Positions 4,449 to 42,518 of a DNA stretch of 64,000 nucleotides are shown piece by piece; the first letter of the stretch is position 1; each line of letters begins with the position of its first letter. Made by a program: the position numbers and the translations under genes. The DNA lies in contig CAJINV010000001.1 in NCBI GenBank assembly GCA_905178155.1, positions 15,314,142 to 15,378,141 of the forward strand. The letters run 5' to 3'. Under the pieces are notes generated by a model, which did no database searches, was not told the DNA's origin, and saw only the letters and a list, made by a program, of their open reading frames with translations. The DNA is from Amoebophrya sp. A120. Its lineage: Eukaryota; Protista; Dinoflagellata.

Positions 4449-7412
4449 ATGGTGTCGCCGGGCTCGAGCCTCATGCGTCTCCTCAGAAGATGGAGCCGGT
4501 CGTGCACTTTTCTGCTTCACAGCGTACTGTTACCGCTTCGTCAGGTTTCGTTCTCCGAGGGCGCAGTGCGGATGGAGAGAATATTTCCCTACGAAAACAA
4601 TCCACCGGCGGCTTTGGACGTCGGCGCCATACTGAATGCTTTACCACTAGAAACCACATCTGCCCTCGACACCGCAGCCCAGGAGCTCGCACGGGGGATC
4701 GCAGCTGTGTTTTTCAACGGGACCGGTTTAGAAGTGGTTTGGGAGGACGCAGACGATGTTTCCTCGACAACCGGTCAAAGCGGCCTAAAAGTTCCGCGAT
4801 TCCGCTACGCGGAAATAGAAGAAGGAGGGGACCAAGTGGGAGTGGCGACACAAGCAGATGGAGGACCTGGCGCAGTAGAAGAGCCAAGAGAGCGAAGTAG
4901 TGCACAAAATAGCACTGTTGTAACAACTTCTCAAGCTGCTGCAGGTGCAGGAGCTCCAGCTGTAAAAATACCAGAAGCCGCATCAGGATCATCCAAAGCT
5001 GACGCTGAGACGAGGAGACCAGAAGAATCCTCGGGAACCTTCGCTAGTCTATCGAAGAGCGTTTTCGGGTGGTTTACGGATTCCACGAAAGACGAAAGCA
5101 CTGCTACGCCCAGCGAAGGGGCCGTCACAACTTCTGCAGGTCGTGGGACTTCTGCTCCTGAAGACACAAAGCCTGCACCAGACCTTGGTGCTGGCGATCA
5201 TGTAGATGCACCCAGGTTAGCAGCAGGCGCGTCTTCAGCTGAAGTGGCGCCAGTACAACCTTCCACGCAAGTAGAGCAGAAAACCTCTTCAGATCCTGGC
5301 GTGCCGCAGACGAAAAAGAAGGAGAAGCTTCGGTACCCGAAGGAGTATTTGAACTTCTGCATCCTCGGCATCGGGAAGGGCAGCATCCCGCTGCTCACCC
5401 GGTACTTCGAATTCTTCCCGCAGATTTCGTTCTGGGTTTTCGTGCAGGAACTTGACTGGGACCTGTGGGACTCGCTCGTTGCGCACTTCCCGAAACGAAA
5501 AATAAACGTGGAATACGACGACCGGATACCGCGGCTGAAGCCCCGGTGCCACATTCTCGCCTTTGGCATGGACTCGGTCGAGTTCACGATCAGCAAGGTG
5601 TCGCGGTTTCTGTTCACCAAGACCGACCAAATGCTCCTGGTGTGGCAGACGCACGGCTGCGGCAAGCCGGGGGCTCTGGAGTGGAACCCGGAGTGCGCCT
5701 ACTTGCACTCCCAGTGGACCAGCACGCTCTGCGGACGGCAAGCCGACCTCGACCTGACCCCAGAGCAGGCACAAATGCTGCGAGAAACACGGTATGGCGC
5801 CTTGGAAGGCCGGGGCTTCGCCGACTGCACCGTGGGACAGCGGCTCGGCGACCGCCCGAATTCCTGGGCGGTGCGGAAACGGCGGGAGGCCGGGGAAGTG
5901 ATTTCAGAGGACGAGTTTGAAAACGCGAACCCGCTAACCGCCGGAAAACCGCTTTGTCTCTGTCTGGTCGACCGTCTGTGGATGAGCGACTTGTACTACG
6001 AAAAGCCGATCTGCGAGGAGTTTGAGCAGCGGAAGCTGCCCCCGGGCCGGCGGATCTACGCACGGCACACTGAGAATTGGTACGACCCCCTGAAGGATTT
6101 TTTTTTCGGCTACGGACAGTGGAGCCAGGACTGGTTTCTGTACAACAACTTTTTCCGGCACAAGAAGAAGGGCTTTTTCGTCGATATCGGCGCGATGGCG
6201 CCCTTCGAGTTGTCTAACACCGCCGTGTTCGAGCAGTGCTTCGACTGGGAGGGGCTCTGCGTCGAGCCGAATCCGAGCCAGCATCTGGTCATGCTAGGGT
6301 ACCTACGCACTGCAAATTATACGTGGGCTGAGTCTGGAAGCAGTGTGCGAGTGAGTGGTGCTCGTTCCGGTAGACAACGCTATAAAAGGCTATCTTGTAT
6401 GAGAAGAAAAATTTATTTTGTGTTGCCCAGTTCTCGGGATGCATAGTGTGGATTGCTCATTGTCCAGGATAAGCAGCGCAGTTGCGAAGCAGAGGCCTCG
6501 CCAAAATGTACGATGCTGCTGGACCATACATAGTCGTGGCAAGAGACGATGTGGGCCAAAGTAAAACTGTTCCAGAGCCAGAAAAATTTCCAATTGACAG
6601 CCTCGGCCGAAGTGCCGGCTTGTCCCCTTCTGCCTCGGCGACAGCACGGGGAAGCGGAAAACATTTGCGTTGCAGGAGGGCTCGTATGGTACTGGACAAC
6701 TCGTTTCGCTTCCCCTCTGTTGGCATGCAAAGTGCAGCTGAATCCTTTTACTTTTTTTGTAGTTGCTGCATGACATCTTCAAGGAAAGAACCCAGGTTTA
6801 GCAACCCTAAGTGGTCGAGAACAAGCAGGATTTTTAAAAGTCTGTTTGTTCCGTGAGATGACAGTTTCAGTTGTCCACTTGCATAGCTCGACCGGACACG
6901 CACGGGTCGCAGAAGACGCCCCCGTAGCAGAAACGAAGGAGGAAACGCAGAAAGCAATCCAGGACTGGCTGCGCGGCACCGATCACCTGGACACGTTTCA
7001 GTCCGAATGCATCTCGTTGGAGGACATGCTGCGCTACAGCGGGGTCACGTGGAAAACCCCGATCGATTTCGTCTCCATCGACATTGAGGGGGGCGAGTTC
7101 GAGATTTTGAAGAATTTTCCCTTCGACAAGTTCACCATCCACGCCTTTTTGATCGAGGCCGGGCACGACTCGGCGCAGCGCATCGACATTCTGTTGCTCG
7201 GAGCGAAGTACGTGAAAATGGCAGTTGTGGGGAAGGATCAAGTGTACGTGCACCAGGAGTATCTACACACCCTCACCGGAAACTACCTGCTTGGGGAAAC
7301 TGACATGAACCCGTACGAGCTGGTGTACCCCCCGTACATCAACATCGACCCGTACAACGACACATTTGACGTTTTCCAGCGACGCTTCCTAGACTCGGAA
7401 TTCGGGAAATAG
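4449..7412 (+). CDS. FkbM-family (Methyltransf_21) SAM methyltransferase; probable exons 4449-~6302, 6601-~6684, ~6887-7412
   Basis: Motifs GFFVDIGA..SNT..FE...WEGLCVEPN and IDFVSIDIEGGEFEIL..FPF; hidden middle exon 6601-6684 reads PRPKCRLVPFCLGDSTGKRKTFALQEGS and joins ORF 6846-7412 in frame; start codon and first donor uncertain. Confidence 0.8.
6685..6885. mobile_element. Introner (singleton family), 201 bp
   Basis: TSD GCTCG (6680-84/6886-90); ends TATGgtacTGGACAACT / AGTTGTCCActtgCATA; removal restores frame; GT-AG if one TSD base is included each side. Confidence 0.85.
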
Positions 7413-14809: not shown

Positions 14810-15501
14810 CTTCGAAAAAATGATTGTTGAGGCGATACAGGAGCACGGAATAGATACAAGATTTTGGATCAAAGCATGATTGGTCTGCTCTGCAGTCACA
14901 GGGTTCCGCACTGAAGTTGCGCATTCTGTAGCTGTACCCCTGGTCCCGACCCCGAGGGTGATCTTCTTCTCTTCTTGCTCATGCAGAATATGCGCTTCAC
15001 CTTCAGGGTGGCCAAAATTATGTCACAGGAAAAGATAAAGGAGAGGAATCCATTCCGAGTGCAGAGATCGTCCATGAAATGCAAATGTGGACCCAAGGAA
15101 CTACAGCACAGGAAGCTTTTGATGTGTGGCCACATTATAAAATCGGAGAGACATGGTCATGGACGGGCACGGGGTATTGTTGAAACTGAGAGAGAGTGAC
15201 AGGGTGAAAAAAGTCTGGTACAGCACTCCTCGCTTTTGTGCCTGGGTGTCTTGATGTACAGTTGTTAAGGACGCGGGATTTAGAATGAAGCCAGATTGTC
15301 GTCCACATGTTTACGCGGCCACCGACTGTTTGGCAAGGGGTTTGCGTATAGATACCGGAATTAGTTTCAGGTCTCGGCTTGAAGGCCGTCAATACGAGTT
15401 GTCAGAGCAACATGACGCACGCAATTACATGGCTTTCCTACACCCCTTCAGGCATCGGGTTGGAACGAGCGCGGCGTGTGAGCGCAGTGGCGAGGATTGG
15501 A

Positions 15502-18500
15502 ATGACAGGAGGGCGAATTATGGCTGCCCTGGCGACACTTCTTGTCGTGCTTCATGGTGTCGCAGGGTTTGAGGTTCCCGTCCGTAAGCAGAATCAGACC
15601 ACTGCCATTGGAAGTTCCGAGACCGACGTTCACACGTCCGAGCATAACCCCGTGTCCTCCAGGGAAGCAGAGGCCGTTCTCAAGAAGAACAGCACAACGA
15701 GGTATGATGAATCGACGAGCCAGCGTCTTCATAAAGATAGCTCCCTCTCCAGCTCGGACTCACCAGTTGACGAACAAGCATTGGTAAACATAGTTGCGGA
15801 GCACCAGGATGAGCCGACCAATAAGTTGCTGCGAAGCACACGACGGGACCAGCACGATTCTGCTGCGCCGGTGGAGGTTCTGGCCATCGATGATGGTGGC
15901 GGAGTGCGTGCAGACCAAAAGATGTTGAAGCCACGTAGTAATCAAGCGCAGCGCAGCGAGGACGTCGCAAACAAAACGGAAGAGGAAGTAGGAACTTTTC
16001 AGAAAGAACCGCAGTCATTCTCCTCCTCTGCTGATCTTCGTACGAAAAATAAAGTGCGGGACGGAGCAGGGTCGTCTGGAAGAAGTCGGGCACAAACCGC
16101 AACCTCGGAGTTGTTCTTGGCCCAGGATGAGGAACAGCCGGTGCCGGTCATCATCTCCTATGCATTGCAAAAGTATCATAGTCGTATAAATGCATTAATA
16201 CAAATTTCCTCAGCATGAGAAATAAAATTTGCAATGCTGATCTGCTTCAACAAGATGATTTGTAATGCACGGCTGCAATACGAGTGCGATACTTTTGCAC
16301 AGAATATCTCCAACCTCGACTACATCAAAAACATCAAGACATCCAGCGACAGCAAGGACCAACTCTTCTCCCAGCTGGAGGACGATTTCGACAATCCTGT
16401 GACGATATCCTGTGCAAAAGTATCGCACTCGTATAAATGCAAGTCTTGCATTACAAATCTTGCTCTTAAGGTAAATCCGCATTTACAAATTTTATTTTTC
16501 ATGCTGAGTGATAGAACACAGATACTCAGAATACTATAGCCGTGATAGACTAAGAGCATATGCACCCGCTTCACTCACCTGAGTGGATTTGAAAGAGTCA
16601 CTCCCTTCATGGAAGGTTCTACTCCTCGGAGGTCATTCATGTCATTTCGTGATCATCTTTCTTGTCATTTGGATCTCTCGCTTTGCTCTTAGATCTACAA
16701 TGTAGGTCGTATTCTGATCCTTCCCTACATTCCCCCTCTGATTGAACCAAGTCCAGAAGCAAGACGGCCTGCTAGGTGTCAAGTGACTCCAAGCATTGCC
16801 TGATTGCTACTTGCGACTTCAATCCTAGAGCAAATGAGAAAGGACCCGAGCAGCGGCTGGATCGTGTCAGGGTCTGAAGAGTACATCCACCAACTCAACA
16901 GATTCGAACTCTCGTAACCAAATGGCTACGGAATACCGGTCTGATGCGCCAAAAACCCCCGCAGATACCCTGCTACCCGCCAAGTGACTCCAGATGAAGC
17001 ATCACGAGCGTGGGAGGAAAAGACCATCACAACCTACTACACAAGTTCCCGCAGTCCCTTGCGACCCTATCTACCCCATTCCCCCTCGATTGCAACTAGA
17101 TAGCGCAATACAAGGCTAGAAGACCTTTCTTCTTGTCGAGAAGTGAATCCTGGGGCGGTGTGCGAAACACCAGCAGGGGTTTCGTCGTTGGTTTTGTCAG
17201 AGGATCTGCACGATTCAAACCAGTTGGACAGTAGCAGAGATCATCAGCGTGATCCTTGACCGAATGCCAGCGCACTTGGAAGTGCTTGGTCTTCTTAGTT
17301 GGAAGGGTAGATTCCGCCACGGTCAGACTGCTCTGATTGTCGCAAAAGATCTGAGGCAGCTGCGTATTGGTCTGAAACCAATCAGCATAACCCTGAGACT
17401 GAACGAGCTGCAAAGTGTCATAGAGAGCAATGTACTCGCTTTCACAAGTACTATGCGCCCTAATCGACTGGCGACGACTCGACCAGGCTACCGGGCATCC
17501 CCGATAAAAGAGAATGGAGCCGCTACTACTCCTAAGCGTAACAGTACACCCAGCATAGTCAGCATCCGAGAACGCAACCCACTCACGGAGTTCGCCTCTC
17601 TCCTTGTTGTGCTGATCCAACTTCTGGACATGTTGAGGCGTCGGCGGGCCTGTCCCCGCCCCCCACGTTGACTCCCGCGCAGAGGACTACGACGCCGCGG
17701 TTCCCACCTCGACGGTGGCCAGCTCGGAGTTTTGCGCTGCTGCTGGTTCCCACCACGATTCGTAACCAGTTTGAGATGATTCAGACCTTCCTCGGCCTCG
17801 CTTCACCACCAGGTCCCGCCTCCGGATATTTAGCTCCGACGCCCGGCACTATGGCGATTCCGATAGCTCGCGACACCTCCTCCCGTCCAGTATCGCGGCA
17901 CGCTCGCGGAAAAGACAGCTTTCCTACACCAATCATCGCGTCCCCGCTGGTGTCGCGCCCCACACCTCGACCTCGGCGACATTGGTTCTGCCTTCACACC
18001 GTGGTGGCCGATCAGACGAGTGGTTACGACGCCGAGGCTGCGCTCACGGCCCGCCTACGACCCCTCCCGCCATGGAGCCAAATTTGTGCCGATTTCCATC
18101 ATCCCAGACACACGAGCCGCTTACCGGCCTCTCTCTCGTCTTGCATTTACTGCTTGACGCCCGGTTCCACTAAGGGTACCCTCCCTTTTTAAGTATTCTA
18201 TTTCTGTGTGAGCTGTATGTTGATGGAAATGCATCACAAATGCGGTCTACCAATGCCGTGCACGACGCGGCACCGCCCGATCTCGATTTTATTTTGCCGG
18301 TGATGATGACTGACCTTGATGAGTGAAAAATTACCGGAAATAAAAAGTCTGTTAATAGTTCAACTAGTCGATCCTGCGCCACATTGTATGTAGTCTGTTG
18401 AGCCGCTCCTTCAGTGGACCACTTGTATGTCTTGTTCCTCCTCGGCCGGTACCGAATCGCTCCTTCGGGAAACCCGAGCTTCTGCCACCGTGAGACCGCT

Positions 18501-21500
18501 TCTCTCACTATAGCATTTTTTTTTCAATTTGTATAAACCCTCCCTCGGCCGTTTTAGATTGTATGACCGGCAGTCTATCATATCGGCGTCCGTTACCATT
18601 TTCATTTTTTGATATTTTGTAGCTTTCACGCAATTGTTACGACTTACCATACCGCACGCACAGCGAGTTCGAGTCTTTTGGTTATTGTTTTAGTGCTGAG
18701 AGAGGTACCTGGGAACCGCTTCTTCCCACGCGAGGTGAGACGCAAATTTAGGCCTCGGCCCCCCGGTTTACCGGACCTGACCAACACTTGTCGGGAAGTT
18801 TCTTTGGACTTAGACTCAATTGCCGGAGAATACTCAGCCCCCTCTGTCAGAGTATGCAACAGATACCGCCCAACCCGCTTAGCCGCAGTGATCAAAGCCC
18901 CAGTGGGATTGGTCATCAGCCTAGCCACCCGATTGACTGCGAAGAGACAATCCGGACGCGATTGCGTAGCAATGTATTGCAAACCCCCAACCAGACTCCT
19001 AATAGGGAAATCTGGCTGCGTGGCCCCCTCTGAAAGATCAGAGTAGACGCACGCAGTGGAAATTGGTTTTCCCGCATTGATTTGAAACTTTTCAGCCAAC
19101 TTGCGAGCTGCTTGCTCCATGTCCAACTTCATATGCTGCTTCTCAGCATTATACAAAAGCCGAACGCCTAGGATGTCCCTGATTTCAGTAACACCATCGG
19201 CAGCAAGTTCCGCTTTGATGGTTTTACCATCAAACTCACCAAGGATCTCCTTGATAGTGTCATCTACTTCTTTCTGTGTAGGTGCACTGATCAAGCTGTC
19301 ATCAACATAGATGGCCAGCGTCACAGAACCGCGACGGAAAAGACCAGGCTCACTAGGATGGCGATCCCAACCATGCTTACGCAAGGATGCATCATAGCAG
19401 TCAAACCACTTACGCGGCGCAATCTTCAAGCCATAGAGAGACTTAAGAAGGCGCATGACATCACCACGACTATCCTTGTGCCAATGCTTAGGCAGACGGA
19501 TGAACACTCGCTCGTCCTGACCAAGGTCACTACGAAGGAATGCATTACTGATGTCAAACTGCCCAGTGCGTTTCTTGTTCGCAGCAGCATCGACCAAAAG
19601 AACCCGACTTGCAGCGTGTGAGATAGTCGGACTGAAGATCTCAGCCTTGCTGGCCTTCGTCTGACGATTCCCCAACGCCACGCATCTGGCCTTGTATCGA
19701 CCGCAGCGCTTCTTGGTGTAAATCGCCACGCGTGGCATGATCTCATCGTCATCGGGTAGCTTATCCTCGTCCGATACTGGCCTCCAGGACTGCAAAGCTT
19801 CCAACTGCAACTTTTCAAGGTTGACAGCCTCCTCCATGTACTTAGCAGAGTCCGGCGCAGTAAGGGCATGCTTCCGTGTAACTTGAACCGTCCACGCAAG
19901 AGCTTGCTCACCTTCCTCCAAGTCATCAGAAAGTACTGAGCTTGAAAACGCGGCAGCTACTTCCGCATCTAGTTCAATCTTTTGCGCACCTGCCTGATTC
20001 GCTGCAGCATTGTTCTGACGCCTAGTCTTCCTGCCCTTGCGGGTAGACCAGTGCGGACAAAGCTCACGCGTGAGACCCGTCGGCCGACCACGACGTAGAC
20101 GAACTTTGACCATTGAACCACCACGCTTGACCCATTTAAACGGATTCAAGTCGTCGTCGATCAAGTCTGAACAATCATGCCGATCACCAGAAGGATTGCT
20201 TTCGTTGATCTCTTTGGACCAATCATGAAACTTACCAGCCCCCTCTGAAAGGTTGGGAAGTTCCCTCCGCTCGCCTATTTCCAGCTGGAGACTACCATCT
20301 GAAGGCTTGTCGGAGTTTTGGTCGCCAGTCTCCTTGTCAGGTTGCTCAAGTGGCACCGACTCAGGTAGACCCGACTCAGGAGAAACCTCAACAGGACCAC
20401 TGGCCTTGTCTTGGTCAACCCTGTCACCCTGATTCGAAATCTCCAAAGTAGGAAACTCCTCATCGAGTTTCTGTCGCTTAGCCGAAGGACTTACTTCAAC
20501 CCCCGCAGGACGGCGCAAACTATCTCCCGCCCCACCTCCAAGAATCAAGCAGAGGCCATGACGCCTCCTCTCAATCAAGGCAGCAGATGTGAGACTAGTC
20601 TGTCCCCCCTCCGGCAGCTGTTTCGGATCCTGCTTAAGCTCCTGAATGTCACTAATGACTGCGTCTTCGAAGAATTTCATCGAGCTACTCTCCTCAACCA
20701 CAAAGCGCCATGCGTTCGTCTTGTCGCTGAAGCGCCAAAGACCAACCAGGAAGCTTGAGGAAGTACGAGAGTAACCGAGAAAGACTCCACGCTCATAGCG
20801 ATCATCCAGCTTTTGCTGTTGGGTATGCACTTTGGCATAGCACTCACATCCAAAACGACGCAGATGCTTTATGGATGCTGGACGATTCCAACGCCGCTGG
20901 AAAGGACTAGACTGCGACTTCTTGCGCTGCAGTCTGTTATAGACATAGGCGACGAAGCGAGCACAGTACTCCCATAGGCATGGATCAACGCCCTGCATGT
21001 TGGACCTGATGCCATCGGCAAGTGTCCTATTCCATCTCTCCACCACTCCATTCTGTTGCGGCTCATAAGGAGAAGAATGGATCGGAAGAATTCCGAAATC
21101 TTTGCAAGCCTTTTTCCAAGATGACTCAGCTCCTTTGAAAGTAGGCTCGTTGTCTGTCCTAACCCGTTCGGGTTTGCCGACGTCTTGAACGAACTTCCGC
21201 AGGATGTCCCCACAGTCAGACTTCTTTTCAATAGCATAGACCTCGACCCACTTGGTACAAGAGTCCACAATACTGAGAAGATACTGAGCACCTTTGAGCG
21301 CCGCAGGAAGCGGAGGGACCCAAAAAGTCAGAATCGACTTGCTCCAGGAACTTCTTGGCAATATGCTCCGGCGGCCTAGTAGGCTTGTGCGATGGATGCC
21401 TGTCCGTAGGACTTACTTTTCGCACAATCTCGGCAAGAGCAGTCAAAGCCTTCGACTTTGAAATGCGCAAGACGCCTGTGGATAGTCAATTTGGAACCGT

Positions 21501-24500
21501 AGGCGGCCCCAGCTGCTGCGCCAATGGTAGCGAGCTGAGCCTGTGCCTCATCCTCGAACGAAACATCAAACACAGATACACCGCCCTTGACTTCAAACTT
21601 GTGAGACTGACCACTGGGGTCGATGAACTCGCGCCAACCATTGGGATCCCCTTGAGGTCCACAGTAGTGAAGCTGAGCCCCCTCACTCGCAGCGACTTCC
21701 ATTGAGAACAATTCCCGAGACAACATCGGATGGAAAAGATCAAACCGCATGCCCTTGCTGTTCGGTTTGAGTTTACCAATAGCACCTTTCACGTTGGATG
21801 CTCCATCCGCAGTGCTAAGAGATTGATCAACAGCTGGGCCAATCCACTCGAAACGACTACGGACGCCCGACATATGGTGGCGAGCACCTGTGTCAAGAAT
21901 CATCTCACACACGCTACTCGACTTCCCATTCTGGCTCCTAGTATTTTCACCTGAAAACACCTGCGCACTAGAAAGGGTCGTAGATGCTGTGTACGACTTT
22001 GCCGGATTGCTTTGCGCTTGAACGTTAGACGAGAAACAGGCGCGGGCGAACGATCCATAACGAAAACCATACACGTGACGGCTCTCATCCTCTACCTCAG
22101 AACAAACCAACTCGCTCTTCTCATCTGGCTCGGCCTCCAAAATGGGAGAAAGGGAGAACACATGATCGACCACCTGACCAGTTCGCTTACTGCGAGCATG
22201 AAAAGATCCTACCAACGCACCAGAGTTGTCACGTTCCATAGAGGTGGAAAGTTCATCATCTTCATCATCAACAGCCCTCGGAGCATCAGAGGCAGGCGCG
22301 GAAACTACCACAGCCATAGCACCCTGAGCACCTTCATCATCATCATCCTGCTGCTTGCCTCCCTTCTTGGCTTTGTGCTCTTTGTTCAACTTCTCGAAGC
22401 GAGCACGCAGATTCTTCGGAGCCTTGTTGGGATGCAGCACCCAGCAACTGCCAGGCGGATGAATCTTGCTGCAGATTTTGCACTTCTTTTTGTTCTTGTC
22501 TCCTCCCGGAGGCTTCAGAACAGCATTAGCGTTGGCATGCTTTTGCTTGTCCTTAACCGACTGCAACTCCTGACGAAGAGACTTGACCTGTGCAATCAGA
22601 GCACGAGGATCCTCTTCCTTGTTCCCTTTCAGATTCTGCAACCCTTCAAACTCCTTCAGAGTGCGTTTGATCGTAGGGATGTCAGTCTGGTTCTGAGCCA
22701 ACAGAGTACCGGCGACAGTGTTAAACTTGGAATCGAGTCCAATCAACACACTAGCCGCGAGGAGCTCATCAAGCGAGATCTTTCCCTGCAGGTCCTCCCG
22801 CGCAATCCGCTGACGAGACTCCACGAACTCCTCAACAGGCGTGGAACCCTGGGGCATCAAGAGTTTCTTTTAGGCTGCCAAACGGCTAGAAGCTTCCTGA
22901 GAGTTGAACTTCTTAAAGATGCTAAGCATGATGCCGAACAAGTGTTGATCATCAGCTTGCTTCGCAGATTGCAGGGGTATGGTGGGGGCGAGAGGCATGT
23001 ATGAGTTTTGCGATGTATTGGCGGAAATACATCGCAAAACTCATACATCATACATGGAAGATTTGAGGAGAGCGCGACGGTTCCCATGTACAATGTATGA
23101 GGTGCAATACATCAATGCGTCATACATTGTACATCGTACATTGTACATGGTCCAGTGTATGACGTACGATGTATGACACATTGCACATTGGTGCATTGTG
23201 CATTATGTACATTGATGTATTGGACATTGGACATTGGACATTGTACATTGTACATCGTACATTGTAGGTCGTCGAGCTGTTCGAGCAGCTCGACATCCGG
23301 GCCCATGTCGAGCCGTTGTCGAGCTGTTCCAACAGCTCGATATCCGGGTGGGTCCATGTCGAGCTGGTGGGGCAGCCGTGTCGAGCTGTTGCAACAGCTC
23401 GACATCCGGGCCTCTGCCGAGCTGTTGCCGAGCTGTTGAAACAGCTCGACATCCGGGCCCATGTTGAGCTGTTGTCGAGCTGTTCAAACAGCTCTACATC
23501 CGAGCCCGTGTCGAGCTGTTGTCGAGCTGCTCGAACAGCTCGACATCCGGGTCCATGTCGAGCTGTCGACATCCGGGTCCATCATGTCGAGCCGTTGTCG
23601 AGCTGTTCCAACAGCTCGACATCCGGGTCCATGTCGAGCTGTTGTCGAGCTGTTCAAACAGCTCGACAAGCGAGGCCATGTCAAGCTGTTGGAGCAGCCG
23701 CGTCGAGCTGTTGCAACAGCTCGACGTCCGGGCCTCTGCCGAGCTGTGGTCGATGCACGATGTACAATGTACAATGTACCAAGCAGGATGCACCATGTAC
23801 AATGTATGATGTATGATGTACAATGTATGAGGTACCCAGAGCGGAGAACTTGCGATGTATGATGTATGAGGTACCTACAGCGGAGAATTTGCGATGTATG
23901 ATGTATGATGTATGAGGTACCTACAGCGGAGAATTTGCGATGTATGGTGTACAATGTATGATGTATAATGTACGAAAGTGAGGCCGTTCTCCTCAAATCT
24001 TCCATGTATGATGTATGAGTTTTGCGATGTATTTCCGCCAATACATCGCAAAACTCATACATGCCTCTCGACCCCACCATATTGGATTGCAGCGCCGACG
24101 AACCCGCAGAGAGACTATTGGCGACCTTCGTCTTCAAAGTCTTGACGGCTTTCGCAGCGTCTACAACACTCTGCAAGGCTTTCGCCTCATTCACGGTCTT
24201 CGTACCCTTGCAGATTGATACCATCCAGAACACCATCTAGATCATGTTCCGCAAAAGCACTGGCGACCTTATGCCACCAGTCAGAATAGCTCTGACCGCC
24301 ATCACCGGAGAACTTCTCCAGATCCAGCTCCTTGGACTTGTCTTGGGTGGGCATGTTTTTGGTATTCTTCGGAAACTAGTAGACAAACTCTAGAAACCTA
24401 CTCGATAAAAGAAAATTGCAAGCAATAGTAAAAGTATACTACTACTGAGTCCACTAAGCTCTAAAAGCTCAAGGTGAGAATGATAGAACACAGATACTCA

Positions 24501-26402
24501 GAATACTATAGCCGTGATAGACTAAGAGCATATGCACCCGCTTCACTCACCTGAGTGGATTTGAAAGAATCATGGTTCGAGGTTCTACTCCTCGGAGGTC
24601 ATTCATGTCATTTCGTGCTCATCTTTCTTGTCATTTGGATCTCTAGCTAGCTTTGCTCTGAGATCTACAATGTAGGTCGTATTCTGATCCTTCCCTACAC
24701 TGAGGAAATTTGTAAATGTAATGCATCTATACGAGTGCGATACTTTTGCAATGCATAGACGAGCGGCGACGGGTCCGACTTGTGGGATGCCTCGTCTCAG
24801 GGGACCGGAGACAGCTGCCGGATATGGCTGAGACAGGCGCAGCAGAATAGCAAAGACGATTGCAAAGTTGACGGGCAGCTCCACGCTCGCACGTTCTGGC
24901 AAGCGCAGCCGCCGTGCTATCAAAGTGAAAAATCCCCCGCTCCCCATATTGAAACGGAAATTTCTGTTGCTGGATTTGTGTACACAAATCAGCTTCGTCT
25001 TGCAGTGAGGCACTGCAGGCAAAGCCTCAGCCTGGGTAGGGGTGTTCTTTTGTAGGTGCTTAGCATAGCAAAGGCCTTCGCTGTAGGCGCAACAGCATTA
25101 CAAATCGCTGGCATAAAAAAGCGGCGGCCTCTTTGGATGTGCCCCCTTGCAAGAGAGACAGGATTGGATTTGTGATCGCAAATCAGCATCACAGCATGCC
25201 TTTTCAGTATGGGGAGGGGGGATTTTTCCTCACAATACGTGCCGGTGCGAGGCGCTGGAGCAAGTCGAGGAGAAGGTGGCCGTGCGCCGTTATTGAAAGG
25301 AAAAATCCCCCCTCCCCATATTGAAAAGGTATGACTTCGAAAATTTGTGTTGCTGATTTGAGGTCACAAATCATATTTGTCTAGCAAGAAGACAAGGGCA
25401 GGAGCTTTCGCCCCATTATGGGAGCGATTTGCCATGCTGTTGGGCCTAAAGGGGAGCCGTTGGCTATGCTGAACAACTAGACACATACGCCCCGATCTAG
25501 CCTGGAGATCTGCCCGTAGTGCCTCTCTGCAATACAGCGCTGATTTGTGTACGCAAATCCAGCATCAGAAACGTCCTTTTGATATGGGGAGGGGGATTTT
25601 TCCTTTTGATAGCCGTGGCAGCCAGACCTTTAACGAGAAGGCATCCAAAGACTCCGACTGGTTAACAGGCGCCGGCTTCGAGTGGAACAACTGTCCGCGG
25701 CTTGGCGACCCACTGTACGTGAGCAAGACTGGCGTGATATCCTGTGCAAGAACTACGTCCCCACGATCCTACATTCAAGACGACAGATCATCGATTCATT
25801 TGCTACGCAGGCCAGGAGCAGGAAGTTTTGGCTGTTTTGCAATACAACAGTGGGTCTGTAAGTACTGCTCTAGTCGCGCGTCGCTCGTGCAGTGCCATCT
25901 TAAATCGATCTTCTTAGCGATGAGTCTGATTACAGCGTGACAAATTTCCAGATAGCAGTAGCAAATGCTCCTCATGTTGGGGCTGTGCGTGCGAAACATT
26001 TTACTAGGCACGCAGATTTGCTGCATGTCAACCAACTTAGTAAGGGGTGAGGTGGACGTTGCTAAAATGGATAGGGGAAGTATCCCTTTCGGTGCTGCGG
26101 AGAAGAGGGCGTGGTCACAGATACCTTCGGCGACTACGTGGAAGTGAACGGCAAAAAAGTGGACTGCATGACGCCGAAACTGGGCGGCGACACTGTGCGA
26201 CAATAGTCTAAGGAGGACCTGGGAGACCGGGGTTGAGGTTTGCAAAAACAACGGGAACCGCCGCCTCTGCACGGTAGAAGAGCTCGCAGCAACCCGCAGT
26301 GATGGCAAGAAAGGAGTCTGCGAAAACAGGGGCGGGGAATGTGACGGAGGATGCATTATCCGGTTGATGGTGATGAACTTGGCTCCCACTACACGTACAT
26401 AG
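15502..26402 (+). CDS. Secreted Cys-containing protein split by 4 introners (one carrying the copia) and 2 further introns; 3' end uncertain or frameshifted, possibly a pseudogene
   Basis: Signal-like MAALATLLVVLHGVAG; exons 15502-16158, 16307-16405, 24758-24917, 25238-25290, 25612-~25736, 25936-25951, 26121- (TSD overlaps aside) join in one frame up to ~26190. Confidence 0.6.
16159..16306. mobile_element. Introner family A, 148 bp
   Basis: TSD TCTCC; TATGCATTGCAAAAG...CTTTTGCACAGAATA. Confidence 0.9.
16509..16729 (-). repeat. Copia 3' LTR (221 bp)
   Basis: Direct repeat of 24481-24699; PPT AGAGGGGGAA on the minus strand at 16730-16739. Confidence 0.95.
17096..17621 (-). pseudogene. Copia RNase H domain
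   Basis: AFSDADYAG...RSSSG...WSSRRQ...STCESEY...CDNQS...KHF...ADPLTK. Confidence 0.95.
17622..18780. mobile_element. Unclassified 1159-bp insertion splitting copia RT from RNase H
   Basis: 5-bp TSD CCAAC (17617-21/18781-85); removal fuses RQVL to DQHNKERGELREWVAFSDAD in frame. Confidence 0.8.
18781..21361 (-). pseudogene. Copia integrase + reverse transcriptase
   Basis: IN: IVD..RVRTDN..PQQNGVVERWNRTL; RT: YKARCVALG, DISNAFL, LLKSLYGLK, YVDD; frameshifts at the pre-integrase junction. Confidence 0.95.
21376..24354 (-). pseudogene. Copia gag-protease, interrupted by the foldback element, stops and frameshifts
   Basis: MPTQDKSKELDLEKFSGDGGQSYSDWW from ATG at 24354; CKICSKIH..C knuckle; protease ILDTGARHHM; HRRLAH..C..C pre-integrase. 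Confidence 0.9.
22975..24084. mobile_element. Non-autonomous foldback-like TIR element (1110 bp) in copia gag
   Basis: 8-bp TSD GATTGCAG (22967-74/24085-92); 94-bp TIRs (22978-23071/23988-24081, 1 mismatch); internal 7-mer and TCGAGCTGTT-type arrays; removal restores SSALQS-AKQADD. Confidence 0.9.
24481..24699 (-). repeat. Copia 5' LTR (219 bp)
   Basis: Direct repeat of 16509-16729. Confidence 0.95.
24918..25237. mobile_element. Introner family B, 320 bp
   Basis: TSD CGTGC; TAT..GAAAAATCCCCC..CCCCATA TIR. Confidence 0.9.
25291..25611. mobile_element. Introner family B, 321 bp, opposite orientation to 24918-25237
   Basis: TSD GCCGT; its reverse complement aligns with 24918-25237 including the interior. 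Confidence 0.9.
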
Positions 26403-26866
26403 GCGGCTAGACCAACACAGTACTTTACGTAGTACTTTTTCCGCAGCTGATGCGTCTGTCAGCATAGTCAGCAAGCCCAGCCTGGAATGTCGCAATGTCG
26501 ACCAAACACATCCAAGCGAATCCGCATTTTCTATAAATAGAGTGTGCGTCTCTAAATTTGATGATATCATCAGCATGCATGGATATGGAATCTGTAACGA
26601 AGTTTTGGAACTACGACGAGAAACTAAATTGATATTCGTATCATGATTGTGAAACCAAACACGCACACGTGCAGAGTAAGAAATGGGACGAAGATCATTT
26701 CTCCATACGATACCCATCTAGACGAGCACCCTTGCTCCGGATTCCGAGCCGAAACTCGCGGCCGTCGACTCGTACGGTGCTAACAACGGGTACAACACGA
26801 AATGCAGCAGCAATAACAAGGACGACTGGGATCCCCACCCTGTATGCACTGCAAACAAGTAGTATC

Positions 26867-29296
26867 ATGTCTGTGTCGCTGGAGTTCGTTGTTGAACATC
26901 AACTCGTATTGCGTACCGCTTTCGTTGCATTCCTGCACCAGAATCGGAGTTGCATGACCAACAAATGCGGCACCTTCTTTTTCATGCACAATCACGCAGC
27001 TCCGTTCCCATTCGCGACCGCGATAAAAATGAGAAATCGTTGGAAAAGCTTGTCATGTTTGGGTGCTGCATTCGTTCCTTTGGAAGAGTCTGACTCTTCT
27101 TCACCCCCCCGTGTAGTCCCCTCGGCATCGATCACGACACCCTTTTGCAAACCCAGACAAGTCTTCATTTGCAGTGAATACCCTGCCGTCCAGATAAATT
27201 TTCAAGAAAACGTGCACGTGAAGCGCGTTCAGATCCACTTGGTCCGGCTGGGAAAGGAGACCAATCCCACCGACTCCGCGAACGCGGCGGCCCAAGAGTT
27301 CTCGGACGTGCTCTACTTCGGCGTGAACGGCGTCGCGACCAAGGATGACACCGCTTTGGCCAACTCCGGGCCGAACAAGCGCCTGCAGTTGAATGTCAGG
27401 ATGGCCGCGCAAGAAGACTTGCGGGAAGCCGACAGCGAGTCACCGGACACCGTCTGCACCTCCGGGCAGCACTTAGAGGAAGACGCGGGATCCCCCATGC
27501 CTCCTCTGGGGGACAAGGCAACTCTTGGCAATTTGATCAGCGAAGCGGGTGGCGCGGTTGCCCGCGCGCAGTGTGCGGCGGTGAAACACTGGTGCTACCA
27601 CGAGCGCGACGGCTTTGGCGCTCCCAGCCTGAACCCCTTCCAAGACGACAACTCAGTGAAGATTGCGGAGCACGTATCACATAGAAAAAAGCTAGCATAG
27701 CACGTTTGTTCGGAAATTATGCACAAATACATCATCGGAAAAAAAAATTCTCTACTGACTTGCATAGCCTAAGCAGGAAGATGCTATTGGATGGTTCATG
27801 ACAGATTTTTATCCCAGTTTCAGCTTGTTTTCGCGTTACGAATGAAACAGCATGCTAGCTTTTTCTTGTGTGATAGCCTGAGGGCAAGCGGTACTGGCTG
27901 CGGGCTGTAAACCGGAACCACAAAATCACGCTCCACTGTGATCCCGAGCTCATGCACGGTCGTGCGCTGGTGATCGAGCACCCGTTCTGGAGATTCGTTA
28001 TGGACCGGTAAAGTGTTACAATCGCAACTGGTAGTACAATGAAAACCTGGAAGATATATTTGTGATGCACGAAGCGCACGATCTTGCCTATCTCTATTCT
28101 CGCAGCAATGCGCATAAGAGGTTCTGGTTTCAAAGCCAAATAGAACCTGGTGAAACTTGATGTATTGCGAAAAGCGCGAGGCTCTGACTGTATTTTCCTC
28201 CTGCTGTTCATCAGGCAAGACCATGAAATCTAGACTCTACCTGTAACTACGTACCAGTTGAGATTGTAGGTTATACTCGTACCGAAGTCATTCGTATCAA
28301 ATGTAAAAATGTCTGGGTCTGGAAGATTCTGACACTTGTCATGCACGTTTTGCATTAGCCCTGATGTCTGTGATGCATGCCCTAGCATCACATATTTTTT
28401 GAGAGCTTCTTGATGCCTATTCCGCATGACAAATGCCCTCTCCGCGTAGCAAAAATTGCATTCCCTTTGGTACTCATGCAATACAGATTTTTTCGGAATC
28501 CAAATGAAGCATCACAAGTTGCATTCTTCCAGACCCAGACACTTTTACATTTGATAATTCGCCTTCTTTGACATCGAAGTCGAGGGGTGGTATCGTATTT
28601 AAAAACGTCCCCACCCCAGAGTTGTAATGCAAATCTGCATGCTGAGAATGTTTCTCATGCGGAGCCCCATGAGAAGCATCTTCTAGTCGTGTTTTGGGAT
28701 TTGTCATGCTCCAATCGGCATGATATACTAGATCTGTGATGCTGCTGAAGTACCTCAAACAGCACTACACTACGAGTCCAAATTTGTCATGCAAGACACC
28801 CAAAACTTGTGGATTTGTCTAGCCGATTCCGCATCTTGACTATGGGATGGGGACGTTTTTACATAGGATAGGTGGGCCGGCGTCCCGACGCCGAGCGTAG
28901 AGGCTCTGGAGCATATGCCGGAGAAAAAAATTAGCAGAGCATATCTGTCATGCCTAAAAACACGGCAAAAAATCCTTCATGGGCAGACCCGTACCCTGGT
29001 GTTTAGCTTATAGGTCGAGCAGAGCTTTGCATTTCAAATGAATCTGGCTTGCTAGCGTGCTAGCTTTTTTCTCTGGGATAGAAGACCGCGATACTGCAGA
29101 CGGAGAAGATGCAGGAGAAGTGGGAAGCAAGGAGACGGGTGGGAAACTGGAGATCAGGAAGACGGCGAGGCAGGATCGTTGCCCGGCGAGGGTGCAGCTT
29201 TGTTGCTCGGAGCGGCGACCTTGCTGCAAGGGGTGCTTGCCTTTTGGTAGTGGTAGACGCGTCCTCAACCTGACCGGTTCAGTCACTTCGAAGTAG
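26867..29296 (+). CDS. Hypothetical protein with 4 introners plus GT-AG intron 27997-28269
   Basis: Exons join in frame: ..KIAEH/PEGKRYWLRAVNRNHK..WRF|VILVPKSF/AFFDIEVEGW/AGVPTPSVEALE/..; start and last exon uncertain. Confidence 0.6.
27675..27875. mobile_element. Introner family C, 201 bp, diverged TSD
   Basis: TATCACATAGAAAAAAGCTAGCAT / ATGCTAGCTTTTTCTTGTGTGATA; flanks GCACG / GCCTG. Confidence 0.85.
28295..28556. mobile_element. Introner family D, 262 bp
   Basis: TSD ATTCG; ~32-bp TIR TATCAAATGTAAAAATGTCTGGGTCTGGAAGA; close copy at 36672-36933. Confidence 0.92.
28591..28870. mobile_element. Introner family E, 280 bp
   Basis: TSD GGTGG; TATCGTATTTAAAAACGTCCCCACCCCA / TGGGATGGGGACGTTTTTACATAGGATA. 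Confidence 0.9.
28914..29080. mobile_element. Introner family C, 167 bp, diverged
   Basis: TATGCCGGAGAAAAAAATTAGCA / TGCTAGCTTTTTTCTCTGGGATA; flanks GAGCA / GAAGA. Confidence 0.8.
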
Positions 29297-33803: not shown

Positions 33804-34273
33804 GCTGCCGGGATTGATATGTGCGAGGACTTTAAAAATAGGGTGAACGTCGCTTGTACTTGTTCACAAGTCACAAGTTTGTTGTTGTAAATCGTGACAA
33901 GATCTTCACAGGCGACCGATAAGTATACATAGACATGATCAACATGCGACCCACAACATTAAGTTTTCTGCAACTTCCACAAAGTGGTTGTCCATGATTT
34001 TGTGCTCACGAACGAGAGCCAAGATTCTCAACCTTCTGTGTCCATGCACGGTGCCGCTGGTCTTCATGCTCGGCCGGGAAAGAGATCAACTTGCCACTTT
34101 CCTATCAACGTTGTTCAAATAGCCCGCGAGCATGTTTTTCTCTTTGTACAACGTATCTCTGTGCGTATACCGTTTCCCGCACTGATGATCTGCCTCGTCT
34201 GGAGTTGGAATTCTTGTTTTTCGTCAGTCTACAACTCTTTGCCTTCCTTGAATCCACCCCCGTAAAATTAATC

Positions 34274-37200
34274 ATGAGGCGTCGCGGTCGTTTTCTCGTA
34301 CCCGTTTTGTCGACGTTGTGTCAACATCTTGCCGTCTTGGATGCCGCACATGGGATGCGCATGCGAGGTGTCCAGCAGGCGGACCTGCCGGCTGAGATGC
34401 AGTCGCCTTTTGACACCAGAAAGGGCGATGACTGCGACTGTATTTTGGATAGTAAGTCCGGAAAGATGGTAAGCCAGAAGGGAGATGACTGCGATTGCAT
34501 CTTGGATGGCAAGCAAGTCTCAGCGGTAGCGGACAGTGCGGCCTCCGGTCGCGGTGATGACTGTGACTGCATCTTGGATAGTAAATCCGGAAAGATGGTA
34601 AGCAAAAAGGGAGATGATTGCGACTGCATCCTCGACAGCAAGCAAGTCTCCGCCGTAGCAGATAGCGCTTCGTCTGGCGGTGATGACTGTGACTGTATTC
34701 TTGACAGTAAATCTGGCAAGATGGTGAGCAAGAAAGGAGACGATTGCGACTGCATTCTCGACAACAAGCAAGTCTCGGCCGTAGCAGATAGCTCGGCGTC
34801 CGGCGGTGATGACTGCGATTGCATCTTGGATAGTAAATCTGGGAAGATGGTGAGTAAGAAGGGAGATGATTGCGATTGCATCTTGGATAGCAAGCAAGTC
34901 TCGGCTGTAGCAGATAGCGCTGCTCAGTCCGCATCTGGGGATGACTGTGACTGCATTTTGGATAGTAAATCCGGAAAGATGGTAAGCCAGAAGGGAGATG
35001 ACTGCGATTGCATCTTGGATAGCAAGCAAGTCTCGGCTGTTGCTGATAGCGCTGCTCAGTCCGCTTCTGGGGATGACTGCGACTGCATTTTGGACAGTCA
35101 GTCGGGCAAGCTCGTGCCGAGCAAAAAGGGCGATGACTGCGACTTATGAAATGCAAAAGCATCGTACTAGTACAAATCGCATGACAAATTTCCTCAGCGT
35201 GAGAAATAGAACTTGTAATGCGGATCTAACTTGAGAAAGAAATTTGTAATGCATGACTGCGATTACTACGAGTACGATACTTCTGCACAGGATACGACTG
35301 CATTTTGGACGGCGACCAGGACACCCAAGAAGATGAAAACGCAGGAGCTCCAGCAGCAGGAGTGTCCGCTGTAGCCGAGTCGGCAACCGAGTCCGGGGAC
35401 GATTGCGATTGCATTCTGGACAGCAAATCGGGGAAAATGGTCAACAGCAAAAAGGGCGACGACTGCGATTGCATTTTGGATGGAAGGAAGGGCACAAAGG
35501 AGCCGTCAACATCCTCAAAAACAGTAACCACAGCAGCGCAGAAGAAGATGAAAGTGGTCGAGAACAAGGCTTCTAGTGCAGCCGCGAAAAAAGCTGCCAC
35601 GACCAAGAAGGGCGATGACTGCGACTGTATTTTGGATGGAAAGAAAGCCACCAAGAAAGGCGACGACTGCGACTGTATCCTGGATGGAAACAAGGAGAAA
35701 AATATTAAAGACAGTGCAGGGCAGAAGGAAAAAAAGAAAACCGGTGACAGCATTAAAAAATCCTCCTCCTTATTGTCCACATCAAGCAGGAAAAAGGGTA
35801 CGAAACTGAGCCGCGTCTTCAGGAGCAATTCGCTGAGTCCAGCGAAGGCGACCGTAACTGCCAAGAAGCACTACAAGCTGAAAGGCAAGAACCGCAAAAC
35901 CGGGAACCCCTGCGCCTGTTTTCTGGAAGGCAAGCTACCGGGCGAAGATGATGACTGCGATTGCGTGCTGGACAAGCCAGAACAGCAGTTAAAGCCGGAT
36001 CAGAAAGGAGCTGCAACTACTTCACACGGGCTGCTCCCTGCAACCGCGGAAGAAAAGTCCACGGACGAGGAGGGGGACGCTGACGAGGCCGCCGAGACTG
36101 AGGACGAGGAGGAGGAACCCGAGCCTGCTGAAGCAGCTCCGGCCGACGAAAGTACAACTTCCAAGGCAGAAGTGCCAGGCCAGTTAAAGAAGGTTGTCAA
36201 CCTCTCCGCGCAGCCGCTACTGAACAAGAGCCAGGCGGCCCCGCTTGGGAGCGCCGCTGCGAACCCCGTAGCTACGGCCCCACCGCCGGCCGCGGCGCCG
36301 GTTGCCACGCAAGGCGAGTGTGCGGAAATCGAGGGGCGGATTCAGCGGCTGCGGGCCGAAATCGCGCTTTGGTCTGACCACACCACCTGGAACCAAAAAA
36401 TTGCCGCCGATAAAGCCGTCGTCGCGACTCAAACCACTGCTGGACTCGGTATGCATCCTTAAAACAACACAGAGATATTAGTCTACACGCGCAGTGCTTT
36501 TTGTTTCGTGAGTAATGTCTTTATCTTCTATCATTGATTAGGAAAAGGAACGAGTCCGTGTGCTAGGTGTATTCGTGTGTCGAAGCAAAAATGCTAATGA
36601 CAATGAACTGGTATTTATTTCCTTGTACTCCAGCCGACATGCTTGCGGACATTCGGTATGAGTTGCACCAGTATCAAGTGCAAAAATGTCTGGGTCTGGA
36701 AGATTCTGACACTTGTCATGCACGTTTTGCATGAGCCATGATGTCTGTGATGCATCCCCTAGCAATACAGATTTTTTGAGGGCTTCTTGATGCGTATTCC
36801 GCATTACAAATGCCTTCTCAGCGTAGCAAAAACTGCCTTTCTTTTGGTACTCATGCAATACAGATTTTTTTAGAATCCAAAATCAGCATGACAAGTTGGA
36901 TTCTTCCAGACCCAGACACTTTTACATTTGATAACCAGATCACGGTGCCGATTCTCGTGGAGGTTCTGGCGGACAAGATCGAGTATCCCACAGAAAAAAG
37001 CTGGCAGGGCATGTTTGTAATGCAGAAATAAATACACAGAAAAATCTGTCATGGGCGGCCTCATAGCATGCTGTTTAGGATACGCAATACAGATTTTTTT
37101 GTGTATTTATTTTTGCATTACAAATGTGACCTGCCAGCTTTTTTCTGTGGGATATCGAAATGCTCGAGAAGCAGCACGCGGAGTGTGCCAGCGGCAAGGG

Positions 37201-41392: not shown

Positions 41393-42518
41393 CATTGGCT
41401 TTCTGTGGCTTTGGCGTTGGCCGCTGCGCTTGTTGACCGCATAAAACATTTATCCACTAGAGTTTTACCCACATTGACAGCGACATATTCTCTCATATTC
41501 TCAAACTGCGACGAAATCCAAATCACATGATTATCCGAAACTGACTCCGATTCATCGTTCGCGATGTTTTCGACGCACAGTAGGAAGGTACTTAGTGTTC
41601 CTTACAGGAATCCAGACGCAGAATGATATATTGCGCTTGTCCTGGCGGTAGTAGTGCCGTTGTAGAAGGAGTTTTTTCATGCGCTCTAAGTCTGTGTCGG
41701 TGCGCGTGCGTCTTCCATTCGGGCCCTTTGTTCCATGTCCTATCAGATACGTTGAAGTCCCTTTTTGCAGTCGCGGTCGCTAGCTTCTGGGTCAGGAACA
41801 CACGCGGCGAGATGCTACTTCTTGCAATGTTCTTGTCTCACTATAGCTATGTATCCGTTGCGACGGTTCTTGTAGATTGATCTTCCTGCTGTTTGTGTAT
41901 TACCTGGGCTGGGAGTGGACTGGGTATTGCTATTGGCTCTCCTTCTCCGCATTGGCATATTGATTCACTCATTCGCAGGACAGACCAGGAGGAGTAATTC
42001 CATAGCTAATTCGAATGAAACTGAAAGTCGTTGCTGCAACATCTTCTTTCATCGCCATAGAACTAATTGCTGAAAAACCAAAAACGCAAAAACTTGAACT
42101 CGATGTTGCACAGAGGATGATGATGATCGCGATCTTCGGCCCACACACAAACGTGATAGCGCACTTAGGTTGTTGGCACAGCATTTAATAGTCTCGGAGT
42201 GTTTTCATCTTCTTCCAAATCTTCATGCAGGGTTAGGGTTCATAAGGTGATACTCGGCACCCCGATCAGCAATGACACAAAGAAACCAAGACCTTAATTT
42301 CTCACGCCACAGACTACATCATACTTAGGTTACTTCGCGATTTGATATCTGTTCCCGTTATTATCCCCGTTCCGTCTTGATGTAGTTGGTTCTGATCGAC
42401 CCTTTATTCTAGTTCCAAAGAGATCGAGCCCGAGGATGTATTACGATTTACTACCAACAAAAATGCGTTTTCACAATTTTACTGACGAAAAACCGCTATA
42501 ATACAAAGGAGCACCACC

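What the first reader, a model, noticed from the sequence alone, without database searches (positions are those of the whole stretch)
16401..24762. Nested elements: host exon > introner > copia > two further insertions
A 156-bp family-A introner was hit near its AT-rich centre by an 8.2-kb copia (TSD CTGAG), which itself received two insertions. All four TSDs are intact, giving the order of events. The introner arms remain near-perfect 8.3 kb apart and the host frame continues across (DNPVT-SGDGSDLWDASSQG). An introner loop may therefore act as a safe harbour for large retroelements, and this locus tests whether hairpin-defined splicing tolerates an 8-kb loop.
Basis: partly seen in the sequence, partly recalled or inferred. 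Interest (0 to 1): 0.8.

Follow-up and report, generated by a model that had tools for sequence, protein, structure and literature searches.

The report
Hairpin intron spliced around 8-kb retrotransposon
In a marine parasite, a tiny transposon-made intron swelled from 156 bases to over 8,000 after a retrotransposon and two more elements landed inside it, and a contig from a likely RNA sample shows it still cut out exactly, but the host gene is broken further along, so this likely shows tolerance of a huge loop rather than a proven safe harbour.

Summary
The anatomy is confirmed. The window is Amoebophrya sp. A120 (a neighbouring gene is 100% identical). A 156-bp TAT...ATA introner holds an antisense 8,191-bp decayed copia. 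The copia holds a 1,110-bp TIR element (8-bp duplication) and an unclassified 1,159-bp element. All four duplications are exact, and related copies show the empty sites.

One contig of a likely RNA run joins exon 16306-16400 to 24758-24912 with no letter between, so an 8,357-nt non-GT-AG intron is removed exactly (one sample).

Two results cut against the safe-harbour reading. The host gene has a frameshift and a premature stop downstream, about as many lesions as the dead copia's rate predicts. About half the gene is introner, so one nesting shows no preference.

A new point: the upstream intron is an inverted copy of the same family and is predicted to out-pair the correct arms. A plain equilibrium hairpin therefore likely does not define the intron. 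The scan has already noted LINEs nested in introners elsewhere in this genome.

The parts
15520..16158 (+). Host exon 1 (first plausible ATG at 15520, hydrophobic N-terminus, low-complexity linker)
   Evidence: covered by contig record 9 of run X3 from 15350
16159..16306 (+). Upstream family-A introner, 148 bp, duplication TCTCC; inverted relative to the nested copy (129 of 148 aligned positions identical to its reverse complement)
   Evidence: absent from the X3 contig
16306..16400 (+). Host exon 2 (95 nt as laid; the junctions can slide within the duplications)
   Evidence: X3 record 9 and X6 record 14
16401..16405 (+). Introner target duplication GACGA, left copy
16406..16508 (.). Nested family-A introner, left part (arm TAT-N7-AAA; ends in the copia duplication CTGAG at 16504-16508)
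16509..16729 (-). Copia 3' LTR (221 bp), polypurine tract at 16730-16739
17099..17616 (-). Copia RNase H region
   Evidence: tblastn of relatives P0001-P0003, 53-58% identity
17622..18780 (.). Unclassified 1,159-bp insertion between RT and RNase H; duplication CCAAC (17617-17621, 18781-18785); no TIR; no Rfam match; its one long ORF tested has no Pfam match
18786..22966 (-). Copia gag (3' part), protease, integrase and RT; stop at about 22870, frameshifts near 21391 and 21312
   Evidence: Pfam RVT_2, rve, SH3_retrovirus
22975..24084 (.). 1,110-bp non-autonomous TIR element (97-nt arms 22978-23074 and 23985-24081, internal 47-nt repeats); 8-bp duplication GATTGCAG (22967-22974, 24085-24092)
24093..24354 (-). 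Copia gag 5' part (ATG at 24354; frameshift near 24213)
24481..24699 (-). Copia 5' LTR (219 bp); 5 substitutions in 212 aligned sites and 3 indels against the other LTR
24700..24704 (+). Copia target duplication CTGAG, right copy
24705..24757 (.). Nested family-A introner, right part (arm TTT-N7-ATA)
24758..24912 (+). Right GACGA copy and host exon 3, joined directly to exon 2 in the X3 contig
24918..25611 (+). Two further introners (24918-25237, duplication CGTGC; 25291-25611, duplication GCCGT) around a 48-nt exon
   Evidence: the exon is inferred from 48 unlisted record positions
25738..26073 (+). Older introner with a decayed duplication; fixes the cut at 2 before/3 after or 1 before/4 after the element
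26077..26356 (+). Host exon with a frame change between 26172 and 26203 (the open frame stops at 26204-26206); DUF7495-like domain
   Evidence: same letters in DNA run X1 and in X3, X6
26719..26721 (+). TAG where an intact paralogue has Trp
   Evidence: (loose end)

Best explanation
An Amoebophrya A120 introner received an antisense copia and two later insertions, and the resulting 8,357-nt non-GT-AG intron is missing exactly from a contig of a likely RNA run, likely because the cell reads the two element ends at a fixed offset and ignores what lies between them. Shown: the nesting, the four duplications, the exact exon-exon join, and a frameshift plus a stop downstream in the host gene. Inferred: the cut lies 1 base before and 4 after the element (or 2 and 3); the ends are committed in order during transcription, so the upstream intron folds or is removed before the left arm of the nested intron appears, leaving that arm free to wait for its partner 8.3 kb away. 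Also inferred: the copia survives here because an intron is the only survivable spot inside a gene, half of this gene is introner, the copia is antisense, and selection on the gene is likely relaxed. It does not require that copia seeks introners.
For:: X3 record 9 (2,711 nt, depth 21.8) has five listed pieces totalling 1,457 nt with 0 other letters and 0 gaps; 16306-16400 is record 1814-1908 and 24758-24912 is record 1659-1813, so no letter lies between them. X3 has zero depth in 21 of 21 bins over 16708-24624 and X6 in 20 of 21, while DNA run X1 covers all. None of the 6 slide positions gives GT-AG or GC-AG. Two decayed-duplication introns in the same transcript restrict the register. Internal look-alike motifs (2 further left-type, 1 further right-type) are unused in the contig. 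Folding: before the left arm is made, the upstream intron pairs with itself; afterwards the predicted best fold pairs it with the nested intron (-136.5 kcal/mol) and loops out exon 2; with the upstream intron removed the correct arms pair. Host lesions: an intact A120 paralogue (P0064) aligns in two frames across the break (sum E 2e-18) and has Trp at the TAG. The copia has 4 lesions in 4,974 coding nt, which predicts 1.6 in the 1,975-nt host frame; 2 were seen. Introners are 2,010 of 3,982 nt of the gene without the copia.
Against: The RNA status of X3 and X6 is the tool's guess, both are one sample, and they are assembled contigs, so efficiency, strand and minor isoforms are unseen. Only X3 shows the join in one record; in X6 exons 2 and 3 lie on separate records whose lengths fit a 30-nt overlap (my inference). 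No listed DNA contig bridges an introner-LTR junction (tables cut: 4,875 and 112 pieces hidden). The RNA and DNA runs are different samples. The arms of the nested copy are better matched (32 of 36) than those of the three other window copies (24, 25 and 27 of 36), which would fit selection for pairing. The lesion counts are tiny, and the first 394 codons are open. Folding energies ignore proteins and kinetics, and the 8-kb interior was left out of the folds.
Confidence: 0.72

Rival explanations
1. Real safe harbour by targeting: this copia prefers introner interiors, so it can sit in working genes.
For: The site is at the tip of an AT-rich inner stem of the empty introner, and splicing is exact. 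Unchecked scan notes report LINE families repeatedly inside introners in this genome.
Against: One event. About two copies of this family by depth (60-87 against 44 for single copy in X1), and the other flank was not listed. Half of the gene is introner; introner elements are 17% of the A120 assembly (PMC7789003 section 11). The host gene is broken downstream.
Confidence: 0.12
2. The gene is alive as a shortened 394-residue secreted protein, and selection keeps the arms paired so that the long intron is removed.
For: 394 open codons across four introns before the break; the transcript is present and fully spliced; the arms are the best matched of four copies.
Against: The break cuts a conserved domain in the middle. 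Zero lesions in the first 1,188 nt has probability 0.38 at the copia's rate. Five other contigs in X1 match both arms over 24 or more letters, which suggests that good arms are a subfamily trait.
Confidence: 0.2
3. The join arises by trans-splicing or stepwise removal: two partial transcripts pair through the complementary arms, or inner elements are removed first, so no 8-kb loop is ever spanned.
For: The arms can pair in trans as well as in cis (-45.6 kcal/mol); the 1.1-kb TIR element can fold on itself.
Against: No depth over the copia in X3, and only short pieces in X6, X4 and X5, most of them with loose ends that point to other loci. The inner elements lack the TAT-N7-AAA end motif. Contigs drop rare intermediates, so this is weak.
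Confidence: 0.07
4. Artefact: the RNA comes from an allele without the copia, or the copia is misplaced in the assembly, so only a 156-nt intron is spliced.
For: RNA and DNA runs are different samples; no listed contig bridges an introner-LTR junction.
Against: Exact 5-bp duplication on both sides. The LTRs differ by 2.4% plus 3 indels, so the insertion is old, while RNA exons match the window at 1,457 of 1,457 letters, both lesions included. All 5 joints are listed and none is an exact empty site; the one skip across the copia has 5 other letters, which points to a related introner.
Confidence: 0.05

Closest known systems
Introner elements (non-canonical introns) of Amoebophrya sp. A120 (Farhat et al. 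2021, PMC7789003; sections 5, 10, 11, 12, 16, 32 read)
   Same: Same organism; ends TAT + 7 + AAA; 5-nt direct repeat; no GT-AG; repeated family; removed from RNA.
   Different: That study analysed only introns of 40-1000 bp (section 32; non-canonical mean 240 nt in A120). This one is 8,357 nt and holds three nested elements. The sections read describe no nesting and no competing inverted neighbour.
Ty1/copia LTR retrotransposons, including antisense copies tolerated in introns (general tolerance recalled, not from a call)
   Same: TG...CA LTRs, 5-bp duplication, integrase before RT, RVT_2, polypurine tract, antisense to the host gene.
   Different: It sits in an intron without canonical splice sites; it is decayed; no primer-binding site was recognised.
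TIR-flanked introners with Copia/Gypsy homology in A120, e.g. family 38 (Gozashti et al. 2025, PMC12130899; passages read)
   Same: TIR ends around copia-like sequence in the same genome.
   Different: Those are described as multi-copy units of unknown mechanism; here LTRs and an inner duplication show a later copia insertion into a single introner copy. Whether some of those families began this way is untested.
Euglenid nonconventional introns (PMC11282704 passages; PMC12501133 passages and section 11)
   Same: Non-GT-AG, paired ends, MITE-like origin, fixed spacers, lengths up to several thousand nt.
   Different: Different lineage and end code (CAG/CTG type there; TAT-N7-AAA here). Circular excision is reported there and untested here.
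Nested introner elements of Micromonas (PMC3879977; one passage read)
   Same: Elements inserted inside introners.
   Different: There, short introners lie inside introners or canonical introns; here it is an 8-kb LTR element in a non-canonical one.

Membership tests
Amoebophrya A120 introner element | Genome is A120 | tested here: met
   window 4449-6443 is 100% identical to a protein named Amoebophrya sp. A120 and 49% to one of A25
Amoebophrya A120 introner element | Terminal inverted repeat starting TAT, 7 variable bases, 3 or more A | tested here: met
   both arms; definition in PMC7789003 section 11
Amoebophrya A120 introner element | 3-5 nt direct repeat at the boundaries | tested here: met
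   GACGA on both sides
Amoebophrya A120 introner element | Non-canonical splice sites, removed from RNA | tested here: met
   0 of 6 slide positions are GT-AG; exact join in one contig of a run guessed to be RNA
Amoebophrya A120 introner element | Repeated family | tested here: met
   4 copies in the window at 79-87% pairwise identity; very high summed depth in X1
Ty1/copia retrotransposon | LTR pair TG...CA with 5-bp target duplication | tested here: met
Ty1/copia retrotransposon | Order gag-PR-IN-RT-RH and copia-type RT | tested here: met
   Pfam rve before RVT_2 (E 1.4e-31); tblastn of relatives
Ty1/copia retrotransposon | Polypurine tract before the 3' LTR | tested here: met
   purine run adjoining the LTR
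Ty1/copia retrotransposon | tRNA primer-binding site after the 5' LTR | tested here: inconclusive
   no TGG start by inspection; not compared with A120 tRNAs
Autonomous (active) copia | Intact reading frame | tested here: not met
   3 frameshifts, 1 stop and 2 insertions
MULE- or hAT-type MITE (1,110-bp insert) | TIR and 8-11 bp target duplication | tested here: met
   97-nt arms, 8-bp repeat, empty site in the sister copia; size ranges of the superfamilies are recalled
MULE- or hAT-type MITE (1,110-bp insert) | Superfamily-typical termini and a matching transposase | tested here: inconclusive
   the outer 3 bases do not pair; no autonomous partner could be sought
Target-specific retroelement (Tx1-like safe harbour) | Many copies at one position of the same target repeat | not testable with these tools
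   no genome held; about two copies, second flank not listed
Euglenid nonconventional intron | 5'-N3CDG ... CHG N5-6|R code | tested here: not met
   by inspection of the ends, at both registers allowed, against PMC12501133 section 11
Euglenid nonconventional intron | Excision as a full-length circle | not testable with these tools
   only contigs covered the locus

The most novel reading that the evidence does not exclude
Amoebophrya defines its non-canonical introns by directional end motifs committed in order during transcription, not by the best RNA hairpin and not by length. Any introner then becomes a length-blind landing pad for multi-kilobase retroelements inside genes, which could also be the origin of the unexplained TIR-flanked, copia-like introner families in this genome.
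Probability: 0.25. Interest if true: 0.75.

Novelty: new variant of a known kind. Interest (0 to 1): 0.52.

Why it matters
How Amoebophrya removes its mostly non-GT-AG introns, with no U1 snRNA detected, is an open question, and the original study looked only at introns up to 1 kb. This locus is a natural experiment with two constraints: the cut stays exact with the ends 8.3 kb apart, and it stays exact although a nearer and predicted stronger wrong partner flanks exon 2. That narrows the models towards ordered, end-reading recognition and gives a ready RT-PCR or long-read target. It does not show that nesting protects a working gene.

Tried and rejected
No whole genome is held, so enrichment could not be counted. 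No listed holder was on record as RNA; that blank is not used as evidence. X4 and X5 were laid only on 16478-24732, so they do not test the join.

I first read the 1.1-kb element as having a TA duplication; removing it that way left the gag frame shifted, and the sister copy's empty site showed an 8-bp duplication instead. Other direct repeats for the second insertion (for example a 7-mer at spacing 1,100) were rejected in favour of CCAAC. I considered the 698-bp block 24916-25613 as one intron; it is two introners around a 48-nt exon.

Stop-codon reassignment as an explanation of the TAG was rejected: standard-code frames of 1,548, 1,874 and 3,070 codons lie in the window, and it would not remove the frameshift. 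An assembly error at the frameshift was rejected because X1, X3 and X6 show no difference there.

Rfam gave only weak hairpin matches in the TIR element, all far below the family thresholds (14 matches). The last host exon found no relative. Pfam gave 1 weak hit among 8 host exon pieces (DUF7495, E 0.0048, below its cut-off). The protein atlas did not answer. No scan note matched the 1,159-bp insert. The full 8.4-kb intron was not folded.
Full report
Organism and setting. A neighbouring gene (4449-6443) is 100% identical to a protein named Amoebophrya sp. A120 and 49% to one of A25. The introns of the host gene begin TAT and end ATA and carry 5-bp repeats; the two family-A copies fit the TAT + 7 + AAA motif described for A120 introner elements (PMC7789003 section 11).

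Anatomy. The nested introner is 16406-16508 plus 24705-24757, 156 bp, between two GACGA copies. Three other family members lie at 8736, 16159 and 35145, at 79-87% pairwise identity. The copia spans 16509-24699 on the minus strand, with CTGAG on both sides, integrase before RT and relatives at about 41% identity over the integrase-RT region. Its LTRs differ by 5 substitutions in 212 sites and 3 indels (K2P 0.024). Related introners show the empty site with a single CTGAG. The copia holds a 1,159-bp element (17622-18780, CCAAC) and a 1,110-bp TIR element (22975-24084, GATTGCAG). A sister copia lacks both, and leaving each out puts the flanking copia sequence back in frame. The order is therefore introner, copia, then the two inserts in unknown order.

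Splicing test. One search listed 10 runs. laid four of them on 15200-26500. In X3, which the tool guesses is RNA, record 9 consists of pieces 15350-16152, 16306-16400, 24758-24912, 25612-25735 and 26077-26356, with 0 other letters and 0 gaps over 1,457 nt. Exon 2 is record 1814-1908 and exon 3 is record 1659-1813, so 8,357 nt are missing exactly. Forty-eight unlisted record positions match the small exon at 25238-25285 (inferred). X3 has no depth in 21 of 21 bins over the copia, X6 in 20 of 21, and DNA run X1 covers all 30 bins of the stretch. The loss of every intron in the stretch and of the copia is why I accept X3 as RNA. X6 is the same sample and is only consistent: exons 2 and 3 lie on separate records. 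X8 laid 0 reads and is no test. The join comes from the pieces table; the joints table hid 55 rows. None of the six slide positions is GT-AG. An older intron with a decayed duplication (25738-26073) allows only cuts at 2 before/3 after or 1 before/4 after the element, and the next intron agrees. Unchecked scan notes propose 1 and 4.

Is the copia in the transcribed allele? No listed contig bridges an introner-LTR junction, because the tables were cut. Three points argue that it is there: the duplication is exact; the insertion is old while the RNA exons are identical to the window, lesions included; and among all 5 joints none is an exact empty site. I put the artefact at 5%.

Host gene. From the ATG at 15520 the spliced frame is open for 394 codons and stops at 26204-26206. 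A second frame, open from 26172, has a weak DUF7495 match (E 0.0048, below cut-off). A search with that piece gave 3 proteins. The best, P0064, is an A120 paralogue and aligns to the transcript in two frames on either side of the break (sum E 2e-18), with Trp where the host has TAG at 26719-26721. DNA and likely-RNA contigs agree on the frameshift region, and the X3 loose end carries the TAG. The last intron (26843-27180) lay outside the laid stretch and is inferred. The copia has 4 lesions in 4,974 coding nt; that rate predicts 1.6 in the 1,975-nt host frame and 2 are seen. The counts are small, but they fit relaxed selection since about the time of insertion. A functional short product is not excluded.

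Hairpin or end-reading. The nested arms match at 32 of 36 positions (-45.6 kcal/mol), against 24, 25 and 27 of 36 in the other window copies. The upstream intron is an inverted copy 95 nt away. Its right arm pairs with the nested left arm at -50.8 and its left arm with the nested right arm at -49.1, against -29.8 for its own pair. The predicted fold of 16140-16520 (-136.5) pairs the two introns and loops out exon 2; before the nested arm is transcribed the upstream intron pairs with itself, and with that intron removed the correct arms pair (the interior was replaced by a spacer). The contig includes exon 2 with both introns gone. The simplest reading is ordered commitment during transcription or protein recognition of the directional ends. 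This is inference from folding predictions. Inverted repeats around an exon are linked to skipping and back-splicing elsewhere (PMC8330042 and PMC13019944; search listing and abstract start only), and contigs would hide rare forms of that kind.

Safe harbour. One event cannot show preference. Introners make up 2,010 of 3,982 nt of this gene without the copia and 17% of the A120 assembly. Depth suggests about two copies of this copia, and the other site was not listed.

Literature. PMC7789003 (abstract, sections 5, 10, 11, 12, 16, 32, and one term search of its supplement) restricted its intron analysis to 40-1000 bp and lists a longest A120 intron of 35,152 bp without comment in the sections read. 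PMC12130899 (passages) reports TIR-flanked A120 introners with copia homology; its datasets were not seen and may list such loci. Euglenid nonconventional introns reach several thousand nt (PMC11282704 passages), and their end code was dissected in PMC12501133 (passages and section 11). Nested introners are noted in Micromonas (PMC3879977, one passage). PMC11453091 and PMC12621601 were seen as passages. Seven searches showed no report of an LTR element nested in an Amoebophrya introner in the listings and passages I saw; Roy et al. 2023 was not among the listed results and was not read.

Verdict. It is a new variant of a known intron class and a useful constraint on an unsolved mechanism. The safe-harbour claim is unproven and is weakened by the broken host gene.

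Noticed in passing
window 16159-16508: Two same-family introners in inverted orientation flank a 95-nt exon and are predicted to pair with each other better than with their own ends, yet the exon is kept in the contig.
   Followed up: partly
window 18702-18764 and 18078-18246: Short stretches of the unclassified 1,159-bp insert recur near the ends of other contigs in the likely RNA runs (depth up to 132 and 216); it may derive from an expressed repeat family. A variant copy about 0.5% different is seen in both DNA runs.
   Followed up: no
window 16509-24699 against the sister copy: Most indels between the two copia copies and one between the LTRs are exactly 4 nt long, which may be a mutational signature of this genome.
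   Followed up: no
window 34270-36460: Gene of tandem DDCDCILD-type repeats with a family-A introner (35145-35294, duplication CGACT) inserted in one repeat.
   Followed up: no
window 42486-57256: Very long sacsin-domain gene (open frames of 1,548 and 3,070 codons) with few introns; Pfam SACS.
   Followed up: no
window 58378-64000: Open frame of at least 1,874 codons with five WSC domain matches.
   Followed up: no
window 28295-28556 and 36672-36933: Two 262-bp TAT...ATA elements, 91% identical, each with its own 5-bp duplication: a younger introner family.
   Followed up: no
window 25738-26073 and 26357-26712: Old introners whose duplications have decayed only in the first bases of the right copy, which marks those bases as intronic and helps to fix the cut position.
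   Followed up: yes
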